Below, piece after piece: positions 2,930 through 51,906 of a stretch of DNA of 64,000 nucleotides; within the stretch, counting starts at the first letter, position 1, and each line of letters begins with the position of its first letter. Source of the DNA: Eledone cirrhosa (lineage: Eukaryota); contig OZ024742.1 of NCBI GenBank assembly GCA_964016885.1, positions 284,146,001-284,210,000 of the forward strand, written 5' to 3'. Made by a program: the position numbers and the translations under genes. The notes beneath the pieces were generated by a model. It was not told the DNA's origin. It worked only from the letters and a program-made list of their open reading frames with translations, and made no database searches.

Positions 2930-5900
2930 TCGCCAACTCACTATTTCTGGGATGGCTGTTCCCTTCGGTTCCTTCGGTATAAAGTAACGTTCAAATTTTT
3001 CTCGATTCTTCTCTCCATTCGAACCCATTCATTCAATCACTTCCATGTCCTAATTTCACACTATATCATATTTTCACCATTCTATATCATATCTTTTCTC
3101 TAAAAATCATATTTTCCCTATCACCGCATTTTCTCTATCGTATTTTCTTAAACAAAACAAATCTTGTATTTTCGTTTATTGTTAAATTATGCCCAAAATA
3201 CGGCGATCTTATCTTAAACCTTACATTCTCGCTAACAACCCATCATCCCTCCCTCCCGCCCCCACGCACCACCATTATTACGTGGACCAATCATAAGACA
3301 GAGGCCCATACTATCGCTTAACTGGTTGCTTTTCGATATGATAGATGGACTACGGAATTCTGGAGAGTTGAAGAGAGAAAAATGTGGACGCTCAGCGACA
3401 ATGCCAAAGATAAAGCCAAATTCACCTCGTGGACGAGAATGCAAGCACTCCTCCTTGTTTCGGCCCAGGATGGCTAACATAACCCCATCCCCCCCCCGCG
3501 CCCCACCGCTCCCACCCTCCAAACGCAATCCAAAACTTCAGAGTTGGTACCATGAATGTAGGCACCTTAAAGGGTCGCTCTAACGAGGTTGTAGAAATGC
3601 TTGAACGAAAGGAGGTCGATGTTTGTTGTATTCAAGAGACCAGGTGGAGGGGAGGGGAGGCTAGATTCATCGTGGGTAAAGAACGATGCTATAAGCTTTT
3701 CTGGGTGGGAAATGACAATGGGTTGGGTGGGGTAGGAATCATGGTAGCAGAAAAGTGGGCAGATAAGATAATAGACGTAAATAGAGTGAACGACAGAATA
3801 ATTAAAATAAGACTTGTCCTCAATAAAACTACGGTGACAGTAATATCTGCGTACGCACCCCAATCCGGACTGCCCGGCGCTATAAAAGACAGATTCTACG
3901 AGACACTGATGCTCGCTACCTCCCAAATAACCGACAGTGACTATATAGTTATTGCAGGCGACCTAAGTGGTCACGTTGGACAACATTGTGACGGCTATGA
4001 CGGAATCCATGGAGGCTATGGGTTCGGTACTAGAAATGAGGAAGGCTCCAGAATCCTGGAATTCTGCGACGCAAATAACTTAACTATCTGTAACACTAAC
4101 TTCAAAAAACGAGACAATCACTTGATCACCTATAGATCGGGGGAACACACAAGCCAGGTAGATTATATCCTTACCAGAAGACGTGACAGAGTGTCTGTTG
4201 TTAACACTAAATCCCACCCCCCTGAAGAATTCACCTCCCAACATAGACTGATAATTAGCGACCTCATAGTCAGGACGAGACGTACTAGACAGCGGAAGAG
4301 GACTATCCTCAGGAGAAAAATATGGAAGCTAAAGGACCCCATAGCCAGAAATAAATTTCAAAGCATATTACTTGACGCTTTCGACAGTAAGGAAGAGCAA
4401 TTAGAGTCGTATAATATAGAGGAACAGTGGGAATTCCTGAGAGCAAACCTGCTGACGGCGGCAGACGAAGTCTGTGGCTGGAGCAGGCCTGTAGGTAGGA
4501 GGAGAGAAACATGGTGGTGGAACAGTAAGGTGGAGGAGTCAATTAAGGCCAAAAAGCAGGCTTGGAAAGTATGGCGGGATGGGGGAAGTAGAGAAGACTA
4601 TCAAGTGGCCAGGAGGGAAGCTAGGAGACAAGTGTACTTCGCAAGAAGGGAAGCAGAGGAAAGAAAGTTCAAGCATGTTCTACAACGTGAGGACCAAAAA
4701 CGTGAGGTGTTCAGGATTGCCAGGCAATGTGTCAAGGAAAACCGTGATATTGTCGGGGAGAAGTGTGTACTTAACGATGATGGCATACTTGCCATCACCG
4801 ACGCTGATAAGAAGGTAGCTTGGAAGTGTCACTACGAAAGGCTTCTAAATGAGGAGAACAAATGGGAGAAAGACAGTCTCCCCCAGATCGATCCAATAGA
4901 GGGACCAGCAGTGTTAGTTGAAGGTAGTATAATAAGTAAGGCAATCAAAGATATGAAGACGGGTAAGGCGGCTGGGCCTTCGGAAATAGTTGCTGAGATG
5001 CTGAAGGCATCTGGTTCGGTGGGACACACCATGGTCACCCGGATAGTTAACCAAGTCGTACAGAATGGGGTTGTTCCGAAGGAATGGCGTAGCAGCATCA
5101 TCGTTAACTGCTATAAGGGAAAAGGAGATGCCCTAGATAGGAGTAACTATAGAGGCATTAAATTAATCGACCAGGTCATGAAGGTCACGGAAAAAGTAAT
5201 AGCGCAACTAATCAGAGAGAGAATTGATCTAGATGAAATGCAGTTCGGGTTTGTGTCAGGCAAAAGTACCACAGACGCTCTTTTCATTGTACGACAACTA
5301 CAGGAGAAGTACCTAGCTAAAAGTAAACCCCTATACTTAGCTTTCGTCGACTTGGAGAAAGCCTTCGACAGAGTCCCCCGTTCCATTATCTGGTGGTCTC
5401 TTAGAAAACTAGGTGTTGACGAATGGCTTGTGAGAGCTATACAAGCCATGTATAAAGAAACAGTCAGTAAGGTTCGAATTAACAACGAATATAGTGAAGA
5501 GTTTAGCGTAAAAGTTGGTGTCCATCAGGACTCTGTTCTTAGCCCCCTACTATTTATTATTGCCCTTCAGGCTATAACAGAGGAGTTCAAGACCGGCTGC
5601 CCATGGGAACTCCTATACTCAGATGATCTAACGCTCATAGCTGAATCAATGGCCGAGCTAGAGAAGAAATTCCAAACATGGAAGCACGGCCTAGAATCAA
5701 AAAGCCTTAAAATTAACCTGGCTCAGACTAAAGTTCTAGTTTGTAAGAAAGAAAATAAGGGGGCAGTCCCTTCCGGGAAGTGGCCATGCTCAGTGTGTAG
5801 GAAAGGCGTAGGTAGAAACTCCATTTTATGTCCCAAATGCAAAGTATGGATGCATAAAAGATGTAGTGGGATCACAGGTAAGCTAACTAAGAACATAGAT

Positions 5901-6963
5901 TTTTACATGTGGCCGGTGCTCTGGTGCAATAAGTAGCAGCAAGTGCCCACAAAATACTAGCTCCTTCAACTGCGCAGAGGGTTCTATAGAAATAGTGGAC
6001 AGCTTCCGTTACCTGGGTGACAAAATCAGAAGTGGGGGAGGGTGCTCTGAAAGTACAGTAGCTAGAGTCAGAACTGGATGGAAAAAGTTCAGAGAGCTTA
6101 TACCACTATTAGCCGCTAAAGGGTTCTCCCTAAAAATGAAAGGCAGGTTGTATGATGCCTGCATACGAACAGCAATGTTGCATGGCAGTGAGACCTGGGC
6201 ATTGTGTACAGAGGATATACGCAGACTAGAGAGGAACGAAGCTTGCATGCTCCGCTGGATGTGTAACAGTAATATACGTGAACGGCAAAGCATAAACGAA
6301 CTAAGGAAAAAATTAGAGATAAGAGGGATCAGATGTTGTTTACTCGAGAGAAGGCTACGTTGGTATGGACACGTGATGCGTATGAAAGTCGATAGCTGTA
6401 TAACAAAGTGCAGGGCAATAAAGATAGACGGTAGTCACGGAATAGGCAGACCTAGAAAAACCTGGGACGAGCTGATAAACTCCAACATCACACACTTACA
6501 CCTCTCCAAGACAATGTCACTGGACCGAGACCTTTGGCGGTACTCAGTAACAGAGAAGACCCGCCTTACCTAAATATATAGTAAAACCTACTCCAGCCAG
6601 TAGGCATCTCTAACAAAATACACCCCGTCCCACCACCCCCACCCCCACACCACCCCGTTCTATGTAAAGTTATGTTGGTGCCGCGCCATCCAGGCCGAAA
6701 CAAATGAGATCGTGTAGGTGTCACGACAAAAAAACACACAGTCCACACTGTAATGTGGCCGTGTAGGCAACACGGTAAAAACCTCCCAGACCCACACTGT
6801 AAATGTGGTTGGTGTTAGGAAGGGCATCCAACTGTAGAAAACCTGCCAGACAGTCCTATGCGAGCAAGACAATCACTCTTGCCTCAAGTGGGACTACCCC
6901 CGTCCAAACCCATGCAAGCGTGGAACACGGACGTTAAACGTTGATGATGATGATGATGATGAT
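2930..6963 (+). mobile_element. RTE-clade LINE (family A), near full-length copy
   Basis: 5'UTR (start approximate), single APE+RT ORF, about 370-bp 3'UTR and (GAT)n tail at 6942-6963; TA microsatellite on both sides. Confidence 0.95.
3552..6573 (+). pseudogene. RTE ORF: APE endonuclease + reverse transcriptase + internal PHD-type finger, disabled
   Basis: Motifs [17 protein letters not shown](S)[22 protein letters not shown](D)SVLSP, Y(S)DD, FRYLG. One extra T at 5900-5904 relative to sibling copies splits ORFs 3552-5936 and 5995-6573; siblings have GDLN, HQGS and YADD. Confidence 0.92.
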
Positions 6964-6999: not shown

Positions 7000-9900
7000 C
7001 AATGCTATTCTATAATTCTGTCTGGCTGTTCTAAATAATCTTGTGTATTTTAATCGCTTGTTACTGTTTATTGCTTTATTTAAAACCCTCCCCTCACTAA
7101 CTACCCCATACCCCAGCCGCCCACCCCCACTCTCCACCATTATTATTTGGACAAATCATAAGTCAGCGGCCTATGCTATCACTTCTCCTGGTTGCTTTTC
7201 GATATGATGGATGGACTACAGGTTCCCTCAACCCCCCCCCCATCTCTCTCCAAATGTAAAATAAACTTGTGAGCTACGAATCTCAGAGTTTGTCGGTCCC
7301 TCATCTTTGTCGCTCGTTTTTGAAATATGTAATGTATTCATCCTATTCTTGTCTATCCATGTTTCCTAGTCCTTCAAAACAATCTTCTTGTATTTTAAAC
7401 TCCCATAATTCAGTCAGATCCTCGAAAGCAATCTTCTACTTGTATTTAAACTCTTAATACTGTTATATGCTTGTTTAATTATGGCCGAATTTCTAGGATT
7501 ATATTATAAAATAACCTTCTCGCTAACTCCCCCAGATCCCCCCCCCCCCTCCGCCCCCACTCGCCACCATTATTATTTGGTCCAATCATAATTCAGTGGC
7601 TTATAATATGTTTCTCCTACAAATCTCTTTCACAAAACCCCCGCCTCAGCCATCACTCCTTAAGTTTAGACCTGGTTGCTTTTCGATATGCTAGATGGAC
7701 TATGGAATTCTGGAGAGTCTGAAAAATCTGGACACCCAAAGACAATGCCAAAGATAAAGATAAATTCACCTCATGTTGGCGGACGAGAATGCAAGGACTC
7801 CTCTTTATTTCGGCCGCGGATGGCTAACATAACGCCATCTCCCTCTCCGCGTCTCATCCTTCCCACCCACCAAACGCAATCCAAAACTTCAGAGTTGGTG
7901 CCATGAATGTAGGCACTTTAAAACGTCGCTCTAACGAGGTTGTAGAGATGCTTGAACGTAAGGAGGTTGATGTTTGTTGTATTCAAGAGACCAGGTGGAG
8001 GGGTGGGTCTGCTAGATTCATTGTGGGTAAAAAACGATGCTATAAACTTTTCTGGGTGGGAAACGACAATGGGCCTGGTGGGGTGGGAAACGACAATGGG
8101 CTGGGTGGGGTAGGAATCATGCTAGCAGAAAAATGGGTAGATAAGATAATAGACGTAAATAGAGTGAACGACAGAATAATTAAAATAAGACTTGTCCTAA
8201 ATAGAACTACTGTGACAATAATATCCGCCCATGCACCCCAATCCAGACTGCCTGGAGTTATAAAAGACAGATTCTATGGATCGCTAATGCTCACTACCTC
8301 CCAAATAACCGACAGTGACTACATAATTATTGTTGGCGACCTAAATGGTCACGTTGGACAACATTGTGATGGCTATGACGGAATCCATGGAGGCTATGGG
8401 TTTGGTACTAGAAATGAGGAAGGCTCCAGAATCCTGGAATTCTGTGACGCAAATAACCTAACTATCTGCAACACAAACTTCAAAAAACGAGACAATCACT
8501 TGATCACCTATAGATCAGGGGAACACACCAGTCAGATAGATTATATCCTTACCAGAAGACGTGACAGAGTGTCTGTTGTAAACACTAAATCCCTCCCCCA
8601 TGAAGAATGCACCTCCCAACATAGCCTCATAGTTAGCGACCTCATAGTCAGGATGTGACGTACTCGACTACAGAGGAGGTCTACCCTAAGGACAAGAATA
8701 TGGAAGTTAAAGGACCCCACAGCCAGTAACAAATTTAAAAGCATATTACTTGATGCTTTTGACAGTAAGGAAGTACCTAGCTAAAAGTAAACCCCTATAC
8801 TTAGCTTTTGTTGACTTGGAGAAAGCATACAGTCAGTAAGGTTAGAATTAACAACGGATAGTGTGAAGAATCAGAGCTTTGTCCTTAGCCCTCCTCCAAT
8901 TTATTATTGCCCTTCAGGCTATAACAGAAGTTCAAGACCGGCTGCCCATGGGAACTTCTCTATGCAGATGATCTATCACTCATAGCTGAATTGATGGATG
9001 AACTAGAAAAGAAATTCCAAACATGGAAGCATGGCCTAGAATCAAAAGGCTTTAAAGTTAACTTGTCTAAGACTAAAGTTCTAGTATGTAGGAAGGAAAA
9101 TAGAGCACAGGTCCCCCGCTGGGATATGGCCATGCTCAATGTGTAGGAAAGGAGTAGGCAGAAATTCCACTTTATGTCCCAAATGCAAAGTATGGGTGCA
9201 TAAAAGATGTAGTGGGAGCACAGGTAAGCTATCTAAGAACGTAGATTTTATATGTGGCCGGTGCTCAGGTGCAATAAGTAGCAAGCGCCCACAGGATACT
9301 AGCTACTAGCTCCTTCTATTGCCCAGATGGCTCTATAGAAATAGTGGACACCTTCCGTTACCTGGGTGACAAAATCAGCAGTAGTGGAGGGTGATCAGAA
9401 AGTCCAGTATCCAGAGTCAGAATGGGATGGAAAAAGTTCAGAGAGCTAATACCACTATTGGCCGTTAAAGGTTTCTCTCTAAAAATGTAAGGCAGACTGT
9501 ATGATGCTTGCATATGAACAGCAATGTTACATGACAGTGAAACATGGGCATTGTGTGTGCAGAGGTCGAAGCATGCATGCTCCGCTGGATGTGTAATAGT
9601 AATATACGTGAACAGCAAAGCATAAATGAACTAAGTGAGAAATTAGGTATAAGAGGGATCAGATGCTGTTTACTCGAGAGAAGACTATGTTGGTATGGTC
9701 ATGTGATGCGCATGAAAGATGACAACTATATAAAAAAATGCAGGGCGATCAAAATTGACGGAAGTTACGGAGTAGACAGACCCAGAAAAACCTGGGACGA
9801 TTTGATAACTTCCGACCTTACTCACTTACACCTCTCTAAGACAATGTTGCTAGACCGAGATCTTTGGCGCTACGCAGTAATACAGAAAACCCGCCTTGCC

Positions 9901-12640: not shown

Positions 12641-13810
12641 CCATAGCTTAATAAATATTAACATCTCTAAATTACATTCCACCACATACATCTGCTTTAG
12701 TATACAAACACGTGGTCAATCTCAAAATTCAAATTTACATCTTGGAGCTATTTCCTTTTGTTATATTACGTTTTATTCGTAAACCCACGTTCTTAGCAAA
12801 ATTTACTTTCAACGGTATCTTATAAACTTTTATAAGTGCCTGAAGAAAGGTCACTAATTTGATGCCGCTAATATTTTGGAGGTATGGTCAAATTTGGGCT
12901 TTGAAATCTTGGGTAGAGCCTTTGTTCCATGTATGAACATAAATTATTAATATATATATTATTTTCTTTTTTTAGTAGTTTCAGTCTTTAGACTGAAGCC
13001 TTGTTGAGGCACTGGCTTTATTTAGTTGAACATAAACACCTATTTTATTGATTTCTTCGATGTTGTACAGTTTTATTGTGGAACCTTTATGAAAACCTTT
13101 AGAGTTGACAGAATAAAGTAACAGTCAAGTACTTAGATCAATTCCATTGACTTCTCCGTCCCAAACTGATCTTGTGCTTAAATGAGAAACCATTTATAAG
13201 TTGGTGTCTGGAACATAACATAAAGGTTCTTACATAAAATTATGAATGACAAGCTTTAGATAAATATATACACTTTAGATAAACAGTTTAGTATTGTAGA
13301 ACCAAGGGTGGTTTCAGGCAGTTTACTATCAAAAGGGGTTAAAGTTTAATTAGGGATAAAGATTAAAAATCTGTGGTGGATAATCACAAAAGCTAAATAA
13401 AACTTTGTTATTGCTTAGAGTGATGGTGATGATAGGGGGGGGGGGGGGTAGAAGAACTGGATCAAAATAAAAATGGCCGAATACTATGGTATAAGTTTGA
13501 GAAATTTTTTTTTTTTGTGTTTCTCTAAAGAAGGGCTTTCCTTGAAACCGTCTTCTCACCTCTAGGACAGCATCTGAATTTGTGACTTTATATAATAAAT
13601 ATTCAAACTAAATAGGGTCAGATCATGCCATTCTGACAAAGTTAATGGGTAAACTATTATTATTCTATGTTACAGCATTTACAAAAATAAAAATAAAAGG
13701 TGTGTGAGGGTTAGAATGTCTTCACGGTATAGGAACCAAGACATTGTAAGAAACCAGAGTAATGGTTATACTGACTAAAAAAAAAAAAAAAAAAAAATCA
13801 AGCCAGAGTA

Positions 13811-13846
<36 letters not shown>

Positions 13847-13903
13847 GGCCCCTGTGCAAGGATAACACGCAAATTCGTGAAATGTTCCATTTTTTTTTTT
13901 TTT
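13811..13903 (+). pseudogene. U6: U6 snRNA retrocopy lacking the 5' stem-loop
   Basis: ATACTAAAATTGGAACGATACAGAGAAGATTAGCATGGCCCCTG(T)GCAAGGAT(A)ACACGCAAATTCGTGAA..GTTCCAT(T)n matches U6 including the ACAGAGA box; about the first 21 nt are missing. Confidence 0.93.
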
Positions 13904-15849: not shown

Positions 15850-17610
15850 CTATCAGTCATAAACAGCACCACTGACAACACCACCGCTATTGCAATGAAC
15901 ACTACTATATTTCCACAGTATCACCTCAACCACCCACCCTATCCACCACCTGCCAATTGAGAGCTTGACCTCCAACAATCCAGACTCAAGCAGTCTATTT
16001 TTAACATATCACAGAAACAAAAGAAGATGTGCCCAAATCTCTACAGGACACAAGACCTCATTCTAAAAAACCTGCAAGAGAAGGACCTCAGATACTTCTC
16101 TTCCGATAAAGGGAAAGAGTTCTGCATCATCTCTCGAGACACTTACAACAGCTTGGCATATGAGCAACTTAGTAATGGTGAACTATATACAGAAGTGCAT
16201 CCTAGATTGAAGACCAAATCAACACCACCTGGACGGATACCTGCAGACTGAGATAACTTCCCAACAAGTATAAAAGCAACTTCACCAACATTCTACCACC
16301 TTGTTAAAACCCACAAAACTAGTATTAATCTACAGATTAGACCCATTGTCTCTAGCATAGAAAGACCCCTCTATGAAATTGCCTGGCTCAAGCCTATACT
16401 TTCTACCTTTCTTCGACATGTCAGCAACTCTGATGAAGTCATACAAAGACTACATCAACTACAACCTAGCCAACTTAAAATCAATTGATACTCCTTCAGC
16501 CTCAACGTTGTCTCCCTGTACAAGACAATACCCGCTCACCCAGCGGTCAACCTAGTGACTGACTGCATCATTTCATCCAACATATACTGCTTCAGCTTCA
16601 CCCCACCAGACATACATCAACTCCTATCCATCATCATAGAAAATACATACTTCACCTTCTAACACCACACATACAAACAAACAACAGCTCTACCCATGGG
16701 ATCCAGTTTTTCAGGCCTACTAGTTATCACCTACATGAATCAGCTGGAACGTCTAGTGCTCAACACCTACTGCTCCTGTGTCTTCTTCACCCAATACATA
16801 GATGATATACACATCTTTACATCATCCCATGAAGAGCTCGATATAATAGCCATGACATTCTCAAACATATATAACATACAACTCACCGTAGAACATCCCG
16901 ATAACAATAGTTCCCTGTCCCTGTTGGACTTCCAACTTAGAATAACAGAAGGCGATATATAGACCAACTTCTATAGGAAAGCTACCAGGAAAGACTTGTT
17001 TATGCATTATATGTTGGCCTTCTCCCTTATTGTGAAAACCAGGTGCATAAGAAACGAACTTACATGTATCCGGAGAAAATGCAGCAAGACGGAGGACCAG
17101 ATCACTGACACTGCACACTTCATGGAGGTACTGAAGAGGAACAGATAACCAACATCCGCTGTAAATCATTTTAGGAACCAAAAGCACTGTAGACATAAGA
17201 CCTTGTCCAACACCCGCTTCGTGAAATTACCACACTTCAGCGAAAACATAACCACAGCAATCCACAAGGAAGGACTGGACATACAATTAGCTCACGGTGG
17301 CCCTTCACTGAGAAAATGGCTATCTAAAAAGCAATCCAGTGACAACCACCGATGCAGCTGACGAACTGCCCTATCCGTGACACAGGTATATGCCAGTGGA
17401 CACATGGTACACTGCATTGAATGCAACAAGTTCTACAATCATAGTATAACTTGACCACTCCATACCTGTACTAAAGAACACCTCAAAAAACAAAAACACC
17501 AAGAAAAATATAACATAAGCTCAACCCACATAAGAGGTTGGAACTCAGCACACAATACTTAACATAAAAAGTCACACCCACAGCCTGAACACAACAATTA
17601 ACACAAGCAA
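15850..17610 (+). mobile_element. Decayed Penelope-like element (RT + GIY-YIG remnant)
   Basis: Motifs across frames: SDKGKEFCII, FYHLVKTHK..IRPIVSS, NVVSLYKTIP, YKQTTALPMGSSFS, QYIDDI, LLDF, FYRKAT..LFMHY, CIECNKFY..PLHTCTKEH. Boundaries approximate. Confidence 0.85.
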
Positions 17611-29499: not shown

Positions 29500-30725
29500 A
29501 TGCTCTGAGTAGGGCCATTTCCTTTCTACTTGCTAGAACTTTAGTCTTTGTCAAGTTGACTTTAAGACCTTTTGATTCCAGGTTATGTTTCCAGGTCAGG
29601 AACTTTTTCTTTAATTCTGCCATAGATTCAACTAAGAGAGTTAGATCATCAGCATACAGGAGTTCCTAAAAGCATCCTGCTTTAAACTCTTCTGTTATAG
29701 CCTGGTTGACGATAATAAGCAGGAGAGGGCTAAGGACAGAGCACTGGTGGAGGCCAGCTTTCATGCTAAACTTCTCACTATAGTCATTAATTTTAACCTT
29801 GCTGACTGTACATAGTTTGTATTGCCCTCACAAGCCACTCATCTACTCCTAGTTTCCTAAGAGCCCACTTGATTATGAAACAGAGGACCTTGCCAAAAGC
29901 TTTCTCCAGGTGAATAAATGCTAAGTAGAGAGGTTTACTTTTAGTTAGGTACTTATCTTGCAGTTGCCTCATCGATCACTAATCAGTTGTACAATGTTTT
30001 TGTAATTTTCTTGAACTGGTCTATCAGTTTGATGCCCCAGTAGTTCCCTCTGTCTAGTGCATCATTTTTGCCCTTGTAGCAGTTGACGATGTTGCTACGC
30101 CACTCGTTGGGTATAGTTCCATTTTCTATTTCTTGGTTTACAATATGGGTGATTAGGGTGTGTCCTACCATCCCAGATGGTTTCAGCATCTCACCAGCTA
30201 TTCTCAATGGCTCAGCTGCTTTAGTCACCTTAATTGCCTTACTTACTACACTGTTGCTGACTTGTATCACTGGTCTCTCTGTTGGAACCACTTGGAGCAA
30301 GCTATCTTCTTCCCATGCATTCTCCTCATCCACCAGTCTCTTTTAATGACAGTTCTATGCTGCTTTCTTTTCAGTTTCAGTGAGGGCAAGTGCACCTGTC
30401 ATCTCAGACACACTTCTCCCCCACAATGTCACTATTTTCCTTGACGCACTCCCTTGCGATCCTGTACTCCTCATGTCGCATAACATGTATAAACTTATTT
30501 CTGCTTCCCTCCTTGAAAAGTATACTTGTCACCTCATCTCTCTCCTAGCCTCTTGGTAAAGTTCTCTTCTTCCCTCATTTTGCCATTCTTTCCATGCCTG
30601 TTTCACCCACCCTACTATTCTACAACCAAGTTACTCTATATCACTCCCGAGATCTCTGCTCCACCTACATACCTCTTTTGTGGCCAGTAGATTATTTCTC
30701 AGGAAATCCCATTGTTCCTCTATTG
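29500..30725 (-). mobile_element. Old degenerate RTE internal fragment
   Basis: EEQWDFLRNNLL, NCYKGKNDALDRGNYWGIKL, LYADDL remnants with many disablements. Confidence 0.82.
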
Positions 30726-30744
30726 TATATATATTTACACACAT

Positions 30745-31720
30745 ATATCTGGTTCTTATAGCAGAATCAGTAGAGGAGCTCGATAATAAATTCTGGCTAT
30801 GGAAACAGCAGTTGGAAGCAAGAGGACTGAGAGTGAACCTAGCTAAGACAAAAGTGTTGAGTAGAAAAGAGGACAAAACCCTGATTCCGTCAGGGAAATG
30901 GCCATGTTCGATATGCAGAAAAGGAACTGGCATAAATTCTATAAAATGCACACAATGCCGATCCTGGGTACACAAGAGATGTAGTGGGATAGCAGGAAAA
31001 CTAACAAGTAGGGAGAAATATGTATGCAGTAGATGTACAGGGAAATTAGACAGTAGAAGTCGCATTGATAGACACATTTTTCAAATGCAGGAGGGCGCTA
31101 TAGAAGTGGTGGATAGCTTCCGGTACCTAAGAGATCAGATTAGCATGGGAGGAGGGTGTTCCGAGGCCATAGTATCTAGAATAAGGACGGGTTGGAAGAA
31201 GTTTAGGGAGCTGCTTCCTCTGTTGACGAAGAAGGGTTTCTCCCTGCGTACGAAAGGCTGGTTGTATGATGCCTGTGTGAGGAGCGTAATGCTGCATGGT
31301 AGTGAGACATGGGCAGCAACTGCAGAGGATATGCGACGGCTGGAGAGAAATGAGGCAAGCATGCTCCGTTGGATGTGCAGTATAAATGTGCGTGAACGAC
31401 CCAGCATAAATGTGTTGAGAGGGAAACTGTGTCAGAGGGATAGAATGTAGTGTACGGGAGAGGAGACTGAGGTGGTATGTGATGCGCATGGAAGATCACC
31501 GATGGGTGAAGAAGTGCCAGGAAATGCCAGTTGAAGGAAGACGTGGTAGAGGTAGACCACGAAAAACATGGGCGGAGGTGGAGAGAACAGACCTCAGATC
31601 ATTGAAGCTCACGGTGGAGATGACGAAGGACCGTGACGAGTGGAGAGATGCTGTGCTGAATAAGACCCGTCCCACCCTTGCAAGCAGGGAAAAGCGGACG
31701 TAAAATGATGATGATGATGA
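30745..31720 (+). mobile_element. RTE family B 3' fragment (also PHD-bearing, no long 3'UTR)
   Basis: [45 protein letters not shown]; the ORF runs directly into the stem-loop/(GAT)n tail. Confidence 0.9.
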
Positions 31721-34537: not shown

Positions 34538-34585
34538 GTTATTTTCTGATGACCCCGTGAAGAGCAGGTGAAAATCCAGAATAAC
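34538..34585 (+). ncRNA. Degenerate minimal type I hammerhead ribozyme candidate
   Basis: gttatttt-CTGATGA-ccccgtgaagagcaggt-GAAA-atcc-agaataac: 8-bp stem I, weak stem II, almost no stem III; abuts (TA)n; AATAAA about 20 nt downstream. Confidence 0.4.
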
Positions 34586-39582: not shown

Positions 39583-42500
39583 ATCATCATCATCATCATC
39601 ATCATCGTTTAACGTCCATGTTCCACGCTTGCATGGGTTTGGACGGGAGTTTTCCCACTTGAGGCAAGAGTGGTTGTCTTGCTCGCATAGGACTGTCTGG
39701 CGGGTTTTCTACAGCTGGATGCCCTTCCTAACACCAACCACATTTACAGTGTGGGGCTGGGAGGTTTTTACCGTGTTGCCTACACGGCCACATTACAGTG
39801 TGGACTGTGTGTTTTTTTGTCGTGACACCTACACGATCTCATTTGCTTCGGCCTGGATGTTGTGGCACCAACATAACTTTACATTGAAAGGGGCGGTGCG
39901 GTTGGGTGGGGGTGGTGGGACGGAGGTGTATTTTGTTAGAGATGCCTACTGACTGTAGTAGGTTTTACTTTGTATTTAGGTAAGGCGGGTCTTCTCTATT
40001 ACTGAGTACCGCCAAAGATCTCGGTCCAGTGACATTGTCTTGGAGAGGTGTAAGTGTGTGAGGTCAGAATTTATCAGGTCGTCCCAGGTTTTTCTGGGTC
40101 TGCCTACTCCGTGGCTACCGTCTATCTTTATTGCCCTGCACTTTTTTATACAGCTGTCGTCTTTCATGCGCATCACGTGACCATACCAATGTAGCCTTCT
40201 CTCGAGTAAACAACATCTGATCCCTCTTATTTCTAATTTTTCCCTTAGTTCGTTTATGCTTTGTCGTTCACGTATATTACTGTTACACATCCAGCGGAGC
40301 ATGCAAGCTTCGTTCCTCTCTAGTCTGCGTATATCCTCTGCACACAATGCCCAGGTCTCACTGCCATGCAACATTGCTGTTCGTATGCAGGCATCATACA
40401 ACCTGCCTTTCATTTTTAGGGAGAACCCTTTAGCGGCTAATAGTGGTATAAGCTCTCTGAACTTTTTCCATCCAGTTCTGACTCTAGCTACTGTACTTTC
40501 AGAGCACCCTCCCCCACTTCTGATTTTGTCACCCAGGTAACGGAAGCTGTCCACTATTTCTATAGAACCCTCTGCGCAATTGAAAGAGCTAGTATTTTGT
40601 GGGCACTTGCTGCTACTTATTGCACCAGAGCACCGGCCACATGTAAAATCTATGTTCTTAGTTAGCTTACCTGTGATCCCACTACATCTTTTATGCACCC
40701 ATAGTTTGCATTTGGGACATAAAATGGAGTTTCTACCTACGCCTTTCCTACACACTGAGCATGGCCATTTCCCAGAAGGGACCGCCGCCTTATTTTCTTT
40801 CCTACAAACTAGAACTTTAGTCTTAGCCAGGTTAATTTTAAGGCCTTTTGATTCTAGGCCGTGCTTCCATGTTTGGAATTTCTTCTCTAGCTCGTCCATT
40901 GATTCAGCTATGAGCGTTAGATCATCTGCGTATAGGACTTCCCATGGGCAGCCGGTCTTGAACTCCACTGTTATAGCCTGAAGGGCAATAATAAATAGTA
41001 GGGGGCTAAGAACAGAGCCCTGATGAACACCAACTTTTACGCTAAACTCTTCACTATATTCGTTGTTAATTCTAACCTTGCTGACTGTTTCTTTATACAT
41101 GGCTTGTATAGCTCTCACAAGCCATTCGTCAACACCTAGTTTTCTAAGAGCCCACCAGATAATGGAACGGGGGACTCTGTCGAAGGCTTTCTCCAAGTCA
41201 ACAAAAGCTAAGTATAGGGGTTTACTTTTAGCTAGGTACTTCTCCTGTAGTTGTCGTACAATGAAAAGAGCGTCTGTGGTACTTTTGCCTGACACAAACC
41301 CGAACTGCATTTCATCTAGATGAATTCTCTCTCTGATTAGTTGCGCTATTACTTTTTCCGTGACCTTCATGACCTGGTCGATTAATTCAATGCCTCTATA
41401 GTTACTCCTATCTAGGGCATCTCCTTTACCCTTGTAACAGTTAATGATGATGCTGCTACGCCAGTCCTTCGGAACAACCCCATTCTGTATGACTTGGTTT
41501 ACTATCCGGGTGACCATGGTGTGTCCCACCGTTCCAGAGGCTTTCAGCATCTCAGCAACTATTTCCGAAGGCCCAGCCGCCTTACCCGTCTTTATATCTT
41601 TGATTGCCTTACTTATTATACTACCTTCGACTAACACTGCTGGTCCCTCGATTGGGTCGATGTGGGGGAGTCTATCTTTCTCCCATTTATTCTCCTCATT
41701 TAGTAGCCTTTCGTAGTGACACTTCCAAGCTACCTTCTTATCAGCGTCAGTGATGGCAAGTACGCCATCATCATTAAGTACACACTTCTCCCCGACAATA
41801 TCACGGTTTTCCTTGACACATTGCCTAGCAATCCTGAACACCTCACGTTTTTGGTCCTCGCGTTGTAGAACATGCTTGAACTTTCTTTCCTCTGCTTCCC
41901 TTCTTGCGAAGTACACTTGTCTTCTAGCTTTCCTGCTGGCCACTTGATAGTCTTCTCTACTTCCACCATCCCGCCATACTTTCCAAGCCTGCTTTTTGGC
42001 CTTAATTGACTCCTCCACCTTACTGTTCCACCACCATGTTACTCTCCTCCTGCCTACAGGCCTGCTCCAGCCACAGACTTCGTCTGCCGACATCAGCAGG
42101 TTTGCTTTCAGGAATTCCCACTGTTCCTCTATATTGTACGACTCTAATTGTTCTTCCTTACTGTCGAAAGCATCAAGTAATATGCTTTGAAATTTATTTC
42201 TGGCTGTGGGGTCCTTTAGCTTCCATATTTTTCTCCTGAGGATAGCCCTCTTCTGCTGTCTAGTACGTCTCGTCCTGACTATTAGGTCGCTAATTATCAG
42301 TCTATGTTGGGAGGTGCATTCTTCATGGGGGTGGGATTTAGTGTTTACAACAGACACTCTGTCACGTCTTCTGGTAAGGATATAATCTACCTGGCTTGTG
42401 TGTTCCCCCGATCTATAGGTGATCAGGTGATTGTCTCGTTTTTTTAAGTTAGTGTTACAGATAGTTAGGTTATTTGCGTCACAGAATTCCAGGATTCTGG

Positions 42501-42938
42501 AGCCTTCCTCATTTCTAGTACCAAACCCATAGCCTCCATGGATTCCGTCATAGCCGTCACAATGTTGTCCAACGTGACCATTTAGGTCGCCTGCAATAAC
42601 TATATAGTCACTGTTGGTTATTTGGGAGGTAGCGAGCATCAGTGTCTCGTAGAATCTGTCTTTTATAGCGCCGGGCAGTCCGGATTGGGGTGCGTACGCA
42701 GATATTACTGTCACCGTAGTTTTATTGAGGACATGTCTTATTTTAATTATTCTGTCGTTCACTCTATTTACGTCTATTATCTTATCTGCCCACTTTTCTG
42801 CTACCATGATTCCTACTCCACCCAGCCCATTGTCATTTCCCACCCAGAAAAGCTTATAGCATCGTTCTTTACCCACGATGAATCTAGCAGACCCACCCCT
42901 CCACCTGGTCTCTTGAATACAACAAACATTGACCTCCT
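39583..42938 (-). mobile_element. RTE family A copy, slightly 5'-truncated, ORF uninterrupted
   Basis: Open frame from [10 protein letters not shown] (about 42938) to the stop at 39976, with GDLN, HQGS, YADD and the PHD finger intact; lacks only about the first 20 codons; (TA)n at both ends. Confidence 0.96.
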
Positions 42939-42986
42939 TATATATATATATATGTATATATATATGTATATATATAAATATATATG

Positions 42987-43021
<35 letters not shown>

Positions 43022-43024
43022 GTG

Positions 43025-43057
<33 letters not shown>

Positions 43058-43060
43058 GTA

Positions 43061-43108
<48 letters not shown>

Positions 43109-43261
43109 TATATATATGTGTATATATATACTTGTGTATAATGGTAGCTATGGTGCTTCCATAGGCGGTATGCCAAAATTAGCACTCAATATTCAGCAGA
43201 GTAGAGTGTAGATAGTATAAAGAAACGAAAAATCAGAGATGCATCTGGACTCAATTTATTG

Positions 43262-46389: not shown

Positions 46390-46450
46390 ACTGCCTGAAG
46401 ACGTCACAGCCAAAGATGGCTGACACCGAAATATATATAGCAGTAATAAA
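46390..46450 (+). ncRNA. Type I hammerhead ribozyme motif followed by AATAAA
   Basis: actgc-CTGAAGA-cgtcacagcc aaagat ggctgacacc-GAAA-tatata-TA-gcagt-AATAAA: perfect stem I, palindromic stem III, base of stem II imperfect. Confidence 0.7.

Positions 46451-48259: not shown

Positions 48260-48266
<7 letters not shown>
47630..48266 (-). mobile_element. RTE family A 3' fragment in (TA)n
   Basis: Tail, UTR and C-terminal codons; truncation abuts (TA)n. Confidence 0.92.
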
Positions 48267-48306
<40 letters not shown>

Positions 48307-48422
48307 CGAATAATGAAACGAAATTAAATTTCGTTTCGCTTCTAACTCACTTTTGTATAACTGACGCTTAAACAATTAAGTTAAAGTGTACATCTATATA
48401 TGTATACGGAAGTATCAGTATG

Positions 48423-48466
<44 letters not shown>

Positions 48467-48623
48467 CACATATGTATACATATGCACATGTACCGAGCTT
48501 TTCACTAGACACTTTACAGTGAGTGTCCAGCTAGTCTGTATGTAAACAGACGAACCGGGTTTTAGAGTCATACGAGTTTTCAAGGAAACACGTTTCCTCT
48601 ATTCTCCAGAGAGCCAGACAGGA

Positions 48624-48666
48624 ATATTGGACTAGTTTCGATGTTATTACATCTCATCAGCAATAT
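48624..48666 (-). ncRNA. Canonical minimal type I hammerhead ribozyme
   Basis: Minus strand: atattg-CTGATGA-gatgt aata acatc-GAAAC-ta-GTC-caatat. All core nucleotides present, G-C closing stem II, palindromic ACTAGT stem III; outer arms 48601-48615 and about 48680-48697 extend stem I. Confidence 0.88.
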
Positions 48667-48952
48667 ATACCTATCTTTCCGGCTTCTCTGGAGAATTGTA
48701 AAAGCACATATCGTTATATGCTTTTTCTATGAAAATCAGTAGTGGGCAGACTAGTCTGCCCACTACTGATTATACATATATAGATATACGGAATATACAT
48801 ATATAGATATATATATATATACATATATATACATATATATATATGTATATATATATACATATATATATACCTATATATACATACATATACATATACATAC
48901 ATAAATACATACATATATATGTATATATATATACATATATATATATATACAC

Positions 48953-49210: not shown

Positions 49211-49332
49211 TACATATATATACATAAATATATATGTATATATATATACATATATATACATATATATACATACATATATGTGTATATATATATATATTCA
49301 TATATATGTATATATATATATATACATATATA

Positions 49333-49364
<32 letters not shown>

Positions 49365-49390
49365 CATACATATATATGTATATATATATA

Positions 49391-51906
<2,516 letters not shown>

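What the first reader, a model, noticed from the sequence alone, without database searches (positions are those of the whole stretch)
48600..48700. Textbook-perfect minimal hammerhead with an extended outer stem
The minus strand reads atattg CUGAUGA gaugu-aaua-acauc GAAAC ua GUC/caauau with every catalytic base intact. An outer inverted repeat (attctccagagagcc / ggcttctctggagaat) extends stem I across an internal loop that could supply the stem I-loop II tertiary contact. This is the best candidate for a currently active ribozyme in the window.
Basis: partly seen in the sequence, partly recalled or inferred. Interest (0 to 1): 0.75.

Follow-up and report, generated by a model that had tools for sequence, protein, structure and literature searches.

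The report
Truncated copy of Penelope-spread retrozyme
This hammerhead-ribozyme motif is one truncated, likely silent copy of a young 470-base non-coding repeat found at thousands of places in this animal genome, and the family's back-to-back insertions suggest that a Penelope-type jumping-gene enzyme likely copied it from a small RNA circle.

Summary
The hammerhead is real (core 48630-48660, minus strand; cut site 48630/48629), but it is not unique. The exact 31-nt core occurs 1,463 times in this genome; patterns for sister families hit 5,668 and 24,691 times. It lies in a ~470-nt tandem monomer, a non-LTR retrozyme. Stems I and II and the outer stem covary between families. It is a canonical, not minimal, type I motif whose stem III is one pair plus palindromic CUAG, so it likely cuts as a dimer. 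This copy has one hammerhead and starts just after the family's U6-like box, so it is a poor candidate for activity. Family insertions carry the Penelope footprint: 94 of 107 two-armed insertions end at one distal and one proximal fixed site, and 236 of 247 such ends abut (TA)n. Both arms share rare variants, some A>G-clustered, and 4 of 148 loci join a retrozyme arm directly to a Penelope-like element. Rolling-circle reverse transcription is inferred; no RNA data were available. The scan reported this family and mechanism before on other DNA of this genome.

The parts
48300..48753 (-). 5'-truncated single arm of the family A retrozyme (monomer positions 348-470, then 1-300, counted from the cut site), with an internal TA expansion; one hammerhead only
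48630..48660 (-). Hammerhead catalytic core, stem II (48653-48649 with 48644-48640, loop AAUA) and stem III (A15.1-U16.1 plus palindromic CUAG); predicted cut between 48630 and 48629
48624..48666 (-). Stem I, proximal 6 bp (48666-48661 with 48629-48624)
48616..48676 (-). Loop 1 (48669-48667 with 48623), the likely partner of loop 2, and the distal stem I (48676-48670 with 48622-48616)
   Evidence: the contact itself is inferred
48601..48696 (-). Outer inverted repeat (48696-48681 with 48615-48601), kept in register by compensatory changes in family B
48300..48373 (-). 'Tail' of about 70-75 nt between the proximal fixed end (about 48374-48369) and the distal fixed end (48300), holding a hairpin at about 48338-48315; this copy ends at the distal site
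48753..48771 (+). 19-nt fold-back copy of the arm's 5' end; the family's ATGCAAAT box, which would follow here, is missing
   Evidence: table 7: family contigs go on into the box at 48753
48772..48810 (+). Patchwork of short pieces matching monomer positions 186-205 in both orientations at the 5' joint (read by eye)
   Evidence: sequence; templated-insertion origin inferred
48266..48302 (.). (TA)n target microsatellite at the distal end; AT-rich repeats continue on the other side to 48949

Best explanation
The motif is the hammerhead of a young non-LTR retrozyme family, and this locus is a one-armed, 5'-truncated and likely silent copy that was likely pasted into a (TA)n repeat by the reverse transcriptase-endonuclease of a Penelope-like element (PLE). 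Proposed cycle. (1) Tandem arrays are likely transcribed through, possibly from an internal U6-like box (inferred). (2) Neighbouring hammerheads likely pair through ACUAGU and cut out ~470-nt monomers, which are likely ligated into circles (inferred from newt, axolotl, coral and mussel work). (3) A PLE protein likely nicks both strands of (TA)n and primes cDNA at two fixed sites on the RNA about 70 nt apart (fixed ends shown; enzyme inferred). (4) Both enzymes likely run round one template and stop at variable points, giving head-to-head multimeric arms (geometry and shared variants shown; circle inferred). Odds: retrozyme copy about 0.95, PLE-mobilised about 0.9, circular template about 0.65, PLE family P4 a helper about 0.5, this copy silent about 0.7.
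For: Tandem monomers of 466-470 nt with the hammerhead in each unit. 1,463 exact cores. Covariation in 15 of 34 pairs across 11 sequences. Of 152 insertions in 148 loci, 107 are two-armed: 94 distal+proximal, 0 distal+distal, 1 proximal+proximal, 8 with one atypical end and 4 cut by the fetch; 236 of 247 fixed ends abut (TA)n. The same footprint appears in 3 of 3 two-armed P4 PLE copies (L107, L113, L117) and is described for PLEs (PMC8557442, PMC11167929). Arms of one insertion differ by 1.18%, loci by 3.41%; L201 has 22 unit pieces over both arms with no difference. 24 rare variants are carried by all covering units on both arms. 5' ends are spread over the monomer and not piled at the cut site: 5 of 403 sites have 4 or fewer matching bases upstream, none has 0-1. 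In L179, 9 of 9 private changes are A>G in both full units; A>G makes up 19 of 39 all-unit variants but 26 of 329 one-unit variants. Direct retrozyme-PLE joints occur in 4 of 148 loci, 3 with P4. The genome has 10,597 GIY-YIG candidates, and RT plus GIY-YIG frames were confirmed.
Against: Cleavage, transcription and circles are untested here. Some arrays grew as DNA after insertion: L199/L200 show a 7-unit higher-order pattern and L186 a 2-unit alternation, so multimers alone do not prove rolling. The A>G excess is weak per locus (10 loci against 5 for T>C) and was absent in a first test on 53 loci whose 94% filter had removed L179 (3 against 1). 'Rare' means seen in at most 2 of 147 sampled loci out of thousands. 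No PLE terminal repeat resembles the monomer among 40 PLE loci. P4 is abundant (P4-like hits in 32 of 203 loci), so joints could be deletions between neighbours, and 2 of the 3 P4 chimeras are distal+distal. The covarying sequences are only three lineages. Most loci come from the first 314 Mb of contig C1, and many were picked by having one fixed end.
Confidence: 0.72

Rival explanations
1. Same element and same PLE helper, but the template is a linear, uncleaved multimeric transcript of an existing array, and long arrays grow afterwards by unequal crossing-over; circles and cleavage are not needed for mobility.
For: Higher-order patterns in L199/L200, L186 and L166. In vitro, PLE insertion did not need hammerhead cleavage (PMC11167929). 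The monomer fold is predicted to be self-inhibited, 8.1 kcal/mol below the active fold. Eight of 9 Xenopus dimers did not cut in vitro (10.64898/2026.07.22.740005).
Against: Identical A>G clusters in consecutive units (L179) and variants fixed in 19 of 19, 21 of 21 and 11 of 11 units over both arms are simplest from one monomer copied repeatedly. The core, stems and palindrome are kept across families about 65% alike.
Confidence: 0.2
2. The repeat is the terminal repeat (pLTR) of an autonomous PLE that was not sampled, so these are truncated PLE copies rather than an independent retrozyme.
For: PLE footprint and a type I hammerhead; 24 of 57 Xenopus retrozyme families match known elements, 21 of the 22 being PLEs (10.64898/2026.07.22.740005).
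Against: Units run head to tail up to about 40 copies with no reading frame (longest ATG frame 64 aa). None of 148 loci continues into a PLE frame at a constant point. No similarity to the termini of 7 PLE families.
Confidence: 0.05
3. This particular copy is a transcribed, active ribozyme with a host role.
For: Intact core and all stems; only 3 private changes, none in the ribozyme. It could cut in trans with family transcripts if read from a flanking promoter.
Against: One hammerhead only; the active monomer fold is disfavoured (A15.1-U16.1 pairing probability about 0, stem I 0.22-0.33); the U6-like box is lost; the same core lies at 1,462 other sites.
Confidence: 0.03

Closest known systems
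Metazoan non-LTR retrozymes (Cervera and de la Pena 2020, PMC7229834: passages and parts 2-4 of 6 read, supplement not readable; Li, Clavereau and Pollet 2026, 10.64898/2026.07.22.740005: parts 1-3 of 5 read)
   Same: Non-coding tandem monomers with one type I hammerhead each, low GC, highly self-paired predicted circle, no LTR, living beside PLEs. Stem III is like axolotl HHR_Amex1, and family B has the U-U base of stem II described for HHR_Amex2.
   Different: The monomer (about 470 nt) is slightly above the 150-450 bp given in the 2020 paper. Insertions are head-to-head arms with two fixed ends in (TA)n, which the parts read do not describe ('inverted' occurs 0 times in PMC7229834). No homology to a resident PLE terminal repeat was found. 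Expression is not shown.
Endonuclease-bearing Penelope-like elements (PMC8557442: passages; PMC11167929: parts 1-2 of 4; PMC4209133: parts 1-2 of 4)
   Same: Tandem plus inverted 5'-truncated copies, a tail on one end only, two internal start sites, AT or (TA)n targets, and a type I hammerhead with palindromic stem III.
   Different: No reading frame; the tail is about 70-75 nt against 30-40 nt; the hammerhead is canonical rather than minimal; arms hold up to dozens of short units.
Newt satellite 2 (recalled; Coats, Zhang and Epstein 1994 was not read; dimer cleavage is cited in PMC7229834)
   Same: Dimer-dependent hammerhead in a tandem repeat; an internal snRNA-type promoter with an octamer (recalled).
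   Different: Here the box matches U6 upstream DNA, not U1 (0 of 15 U1 loci), and the box-to-TATA spacing is 4-8 nt shorter than in U6.

Membership tests
Type I hammerhead ribozyme | Conserved core C3-A9, G12-A14, A15.1-U16.1, H17 | tested here: met
Type I hammerhead ribozyme | Stems I and II supported by covariation | tested here: met
   4 of 14 and 3 of 5 pairs change on both sides; three lineages only
Type I hammerhead ribozyme | Rfam family gathering score | tested here: not met
   HH9 34.9 bits against 52; the model expects a longer stem III
Type I hammerhead ribozyme | Mg2+-dependent self-cleavage | not testable with these tools
   needs in vitro transcription
Minimal PLE hammerhead (min-HHR) | Helix II 7-8 bp, helix I 4-5 bp, poorly defined loop 1, extra base before 10.1 | tested here: not met
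   helix I 6 bp, helix II 4-5 bp, conserved loop 1, no extra base (definitions)
Metazoan non-LTR retrozyme | Tandem monomers of a few hundred bases with one type I hammerhead each | tested here: met
   (family); the window copy itself is under one full unit
Metazoan non-LTR retrozyme | Non-coding, no LTR, low GC | tested here: met
   longest ATG frame 64 aa; no antisense hammerhead
Metazoan non-LTR retrozyme | Highly self-paired predicted circle | tested here: met
   70% paired, z -10.4 against 60 shuffles
Metazoan non-LTR retrozyme | Expressed as linear and circular monomer RNA | not testable with these tools
   no RNA holder listed
Non-autonomous partner of an EN+ PLE | Inverted 5'-truncated arm and one-sided tail between two fixed ends | tested here: met
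   94 of 107 two-armed insertions
Non-autonomous partner of an EN+ PLE | AT or (TA)n target | tested here: met
   236 of 247 ends
Non-autonomous partner of an EN+ PLE | Sequence homology to a resident PLE terminal repeat | tested here: inconclusive
   none among 40 PLE loci of 7 families, taken from 150 listed of 10,597 candidates
Autonomous PLE | RT plus GIY-YIG reading frame | tested here: not met
U6-type (external Pol III) promoter | Upstream box and TATA at U6 spacing | tested here: inconclusive
   15-nt exact match to a U6 upstream (5 of 1000 shuffles reach it); TATA offset 42-43 against 46-50, and weak in family A

The most novel reading that the evidence does not exclude
This family records the complete mobilisation route of an animal retrozyme. 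An RNA circle that carries its own U6-like promoter, and is sometimes A-to-I edited, is bound by a Penelope protein pair that primes at two sites on one molecule and rolls round it from both ends of a (TA)n break. The strict one-distal-one-proximal rule, broken in chimeras made from two different RNAs, would explain the PLE inverted-arm-plus-tail structure, with PLE family P4 acting as helper in trans without sharing sequence.
Probability: 0.4. Interest if true: 0.75.

Novelty: new member of a known kind. Interest (0 to 1): 0.5.

Why it matters
How animal retrozymes move, and how PLEs build their tandem and inverted insertions with a tail, are open questions in the papers read (PMC7229834, PMC8557442, PMC11167929). 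Thousands of short, 98-99% identical copies give countable tests of template, start sites and helper, and name a candidate enzyme-RNA pair for reconstitution. Six paper searches on these questions listed no paper on retrozymes of cephalopods or on this two-armed footprint in retrozymes; subscription papers and unread supplements may hold it. The single locus flagged is ordinary: a truncated copy.

Tried and rejected
Expression: no RNA holder was listed; laying three runs of unrecorded kind from one sample only showed the family as contigs. Neither bears on expression. Relatives elsewhere: 0 matches in viral contigs and 0 in metagenome contigs; no related genomes are held. Rfam at gathering score found only a U6 copy in the window. 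A parent PLE with a homologous terminal repeat was not found; the hits in L111 and L112 were separate retrozyme insertions in shared TA tracts. A U1-type promoter was rejected: no octamer in 15 of 15 U1 upstream regions; an 11-nt match to the U1 proximal motif lies on the opposite strand and is not kept in family B. The window's U6 is a truncated retrocopy and gave no promoter. Enrichment of 5' ends at the cut site (12 of 259) proved mostly a BLAST splitting artefact. The first editing test was negative. A motif count of family B ends was too strict to use; family B geometry was seen by eye in L111 and L112 only. The idea that ACUGGU is the family norm was rejected (8 copies against 1,463). 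The supplement of PMC7229834 could not be read, and bioRxiv supplements are closed; both may list related species. The Hydra-type start-signal lead (e1-8805697) was not tested.

Full report
Observation. The sequence is as described: on the minus strand a complete type I hammerhead core lies at 48660-48630, with the predicted cut between 48630 and 48629. The 111-nt region folds far better than shuffles (z -5.6, 0 of 200) and matches Rfam Hammerhead_HH9 (E 8.8e-08, 34.9 bits, under the gathering score of 52). A loose hammerhead pattern is not by itself significant in the window (4 matches, 3.5 expected); the exact core occurs once there. The host is a 3.0-Gb animal genome; that it is a cephalopod is my guess from composition and the wording of earlier notes, not a test.

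Anatomy of the ribozyme. Stem I has 6 bp, then a small internal loop (UAU against U), 7 more pairs and the outer repeat. Stem II has 5 bp with AAUA (or 4 bp with a hexaloop). Stem III is only A15.1-U16.1 capped by palindromic CUAG. PMC4209133 calls this build canonical (helix I 6 bp, helix II 4 bp, short palindromic helix III) and says it cuts efficiently only as a dimer; minimal PLE motifs differ. Folding predicts a self-inhibited monomer: the forced active fold is -34.8 against -42.9 kcal/mol, stem I pairs at 0.22-0.33 and A15.1-U16.1 at about 0, while ACUAGU forms a 6-bp duplex with itself (the model ignores tertiary contacts).

It is a mobile repeat. A DNA search of the genome gave 1,110 candidates; 40 were scored, mostly 97-99% identical over 240 nt. 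The exact core occurs 1,463 times, its ACUGGU variant 8 times. Copies form tandem arrays of 466-470-nt units. A pattern excluding this family hit 5,668 times, mostly a sister subfamily A' in the 100 places listed; family B, about 65% alike, hit 24,691 times. Across 11 hand-picked sequences of A, A' and B, 15 of 34 pairs change on both sides, among them 8 of 14 in the outer helix, and no shuffle of 500 reached this; these are three lineages, not eleven. The monomer has no reading frame over 64 aa, no antisense hammerhead, and as a circle is 70% paired (z -10.4, 60 shuffles). This is a non-LTR retrozyme in the sense of PMC7229834.

This copy. It runs 48753 to 48300, monomer positions 348-470 then 1-300, with one hammerhead, ends in (TA)n, and has a 19-nt fold-back plus a short patchwork at its 5' joint. 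It has 3 private changes, none in the ribozyme. It begins one base after the ATGCAAAT box that families A and B share; contigs of the family go on into that box at 48753. With no second hammerhead it cannot release a monomer, and it has lost the likely promoter box. It is therefore less likely to be active than the arrays.

Insertion footprint. I mapped 148 loci, chosen by the hammerhead core, a distal end or a proximal end, mostly from the first 314 Mb of contig C1. I dropped overlapping fetches and L177 as a duplicate of L176, and L200 as the continuation of L199; L307 and L308 look like duplicates and were both kept. The loci hold 152 insertions: 45 one-armed and 107 with two head-to-head arms. 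Of the 107, 94 end at one distal (about 300) and one proximal (226-231) site, none at two distal, one at two proximal, 8 have one atypical end and 4 were cut by the fetch. 236 of 247 fixed ends abut (TA)n, and 5' ends are spread over the monomer. The distal joint pattern alone occurs 2,151 times. This is the PLE layout of tandem and inverted 5'-truncated copies with a one-sided tail (PMC8557442), explained in vitro by two internal start sites at nicked AT-rich DNA (PMC11167929). Three of three two-armed copies of resident PLE family P4 show the same distal+proximal ends in (TA)n.

Template. Arms of one insertion share their haplotype (1.18% apart against 3.41% between loci); L201 has 22 unit pieces over both arms with no difference. 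In 147 loci, 24 rare variants are fixed in all covering units on both arms and 15 in all units of one arm. Nineteen of these 39 are A>G and 5 T>C, against 26 and 45 of 329 one-unit variants; L179 has 9 of 9 private changes A>G in both full units. That looks like A-to-I editing of the hammerhead strand before copying (lead from e1-8803865). Against: per locus it is 10 against 5, a first test that had filtered out L179 was negative, and L199/L200 and L186 show periodic patterns of later DNA amplification. 5' ends do not pile up at the cut site, so cut linear monomers are not the usual template. A circle is the simplest reading; an uncleaved multimer is the main rival.

Helper. The genome has 10,597 GIY-YIG candidates; 20 long frames fall into 7 PLE families, and 4 of 5 tested carry RT and GIY-YIG domains in Pfam. 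None of 40 PLE loci shares terminal sequence with the monomer. But 4 of 148 loci join a retrozyme arm directly to a PLE piece with no TA between: L023, L173 and L325 to P4, L140 to a P3-like element. In L173 and L325 the PLE 3' part and retrozyme sequence lie in one arm, and L325 has a fold-back at the PLE side of the joint like that of the window copy. L173 is distal+proximal; L023 and L325 are distal+distal, a class never seen in pure insertions, which would fit two start sites being used on one RNA molecule. Deletion between neighbours is not excluded, since P4 is common.

Promoter. U1 genes lack the box (0 of 15). After a lead from e1-9968726 I found it, or a one-base variant, at about -76 to -78 in 22 of 30 U6 loci; the monomer shares 15 exact bases with one U6 upstream, reached by 5 of 1000 shuffles. 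The TATA-like element follows at +42 or +43 against +46 to +50 in U6 and is weak in family A, so the promoter is a lead only. A similar internal snRNA-type promoter in newt satellite 2 is recalled, not read (search).

Literature and novelty. Retrozymes and their link to PLEs are published: proposed in PMC7229834 and PMC4209133, and supported by co-occurrence and pLTR homology in 10.64898/2026.07.22.740005. Searches listed no paper on this family or on the two-armed footprint in retrozymes; unread supplements may bear on this. The scan's earlier notes report the same family and mechanism on other DNA of this genome; I reached the family, footprint and chimeras before reading them. Verdict: a new member of a known kind. 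The flagged locus is an ordinary truncated copy; the family makes an open mechanistic question testable. Interest 0.5.

Noticed in passing
window 13797-13896 (+): U6 copy (Rfam 91.3 bits) with a damaged 5' end, a run of A before and a run of T after, and no upstream box: likely a retrocopy.
   Followed up: partly
window 3483-5936, 7828-8658, 30560-31450, 39976-43185, 49211-51053: Pieces of a LINE family with APE endonuclease, RT and a C-terminal PHD finger; the frame at 39976-43185 is 1,069 aa.
   Followed up: no
window 16288-17484 (+): Fragment of a PLE, 57% identical to the L111 protein.
   Followed up: no
window 34546-34583 (+) and 46395-46439 (+): Two further hammerhead-like strings of other families; the second resembles one in L104.
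   Followed up: no
L107, L112, L118 terminal repeats: Resident PLE families carry hammerhead-like motifs with the U3-A8 core variant and an ACCGGU palindrome; P4 has a change at A13. Family P2 has an AGUACU palindrome (read by eye).
   Followed up: partly
L121-L135, L256, L257 upstream regions: U1 and dispersed U6 genes share a TTAYYTCCCTTG-like element about 255 nt upstream; U1 has an AATCAGT-like motif near -55 (read by eye).
   Followed up: no
L199/L200 (G000:C1:95.62-95.64 Mb): Array of about 40 units or more with a 7-unit higher-order repeat: a retrozyme turning into satellite DNA.
   Followed up: partly
L032 (G000:C9:26734635-26739807): Complex array with several inversions and a TA expansion in each unit.
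   Followed up: no
L028 3040-3100: The inversion joint lies between the two arms of the ribozyme's outer stem, suggesting a template switch across the hairpin.
   Followed up: no
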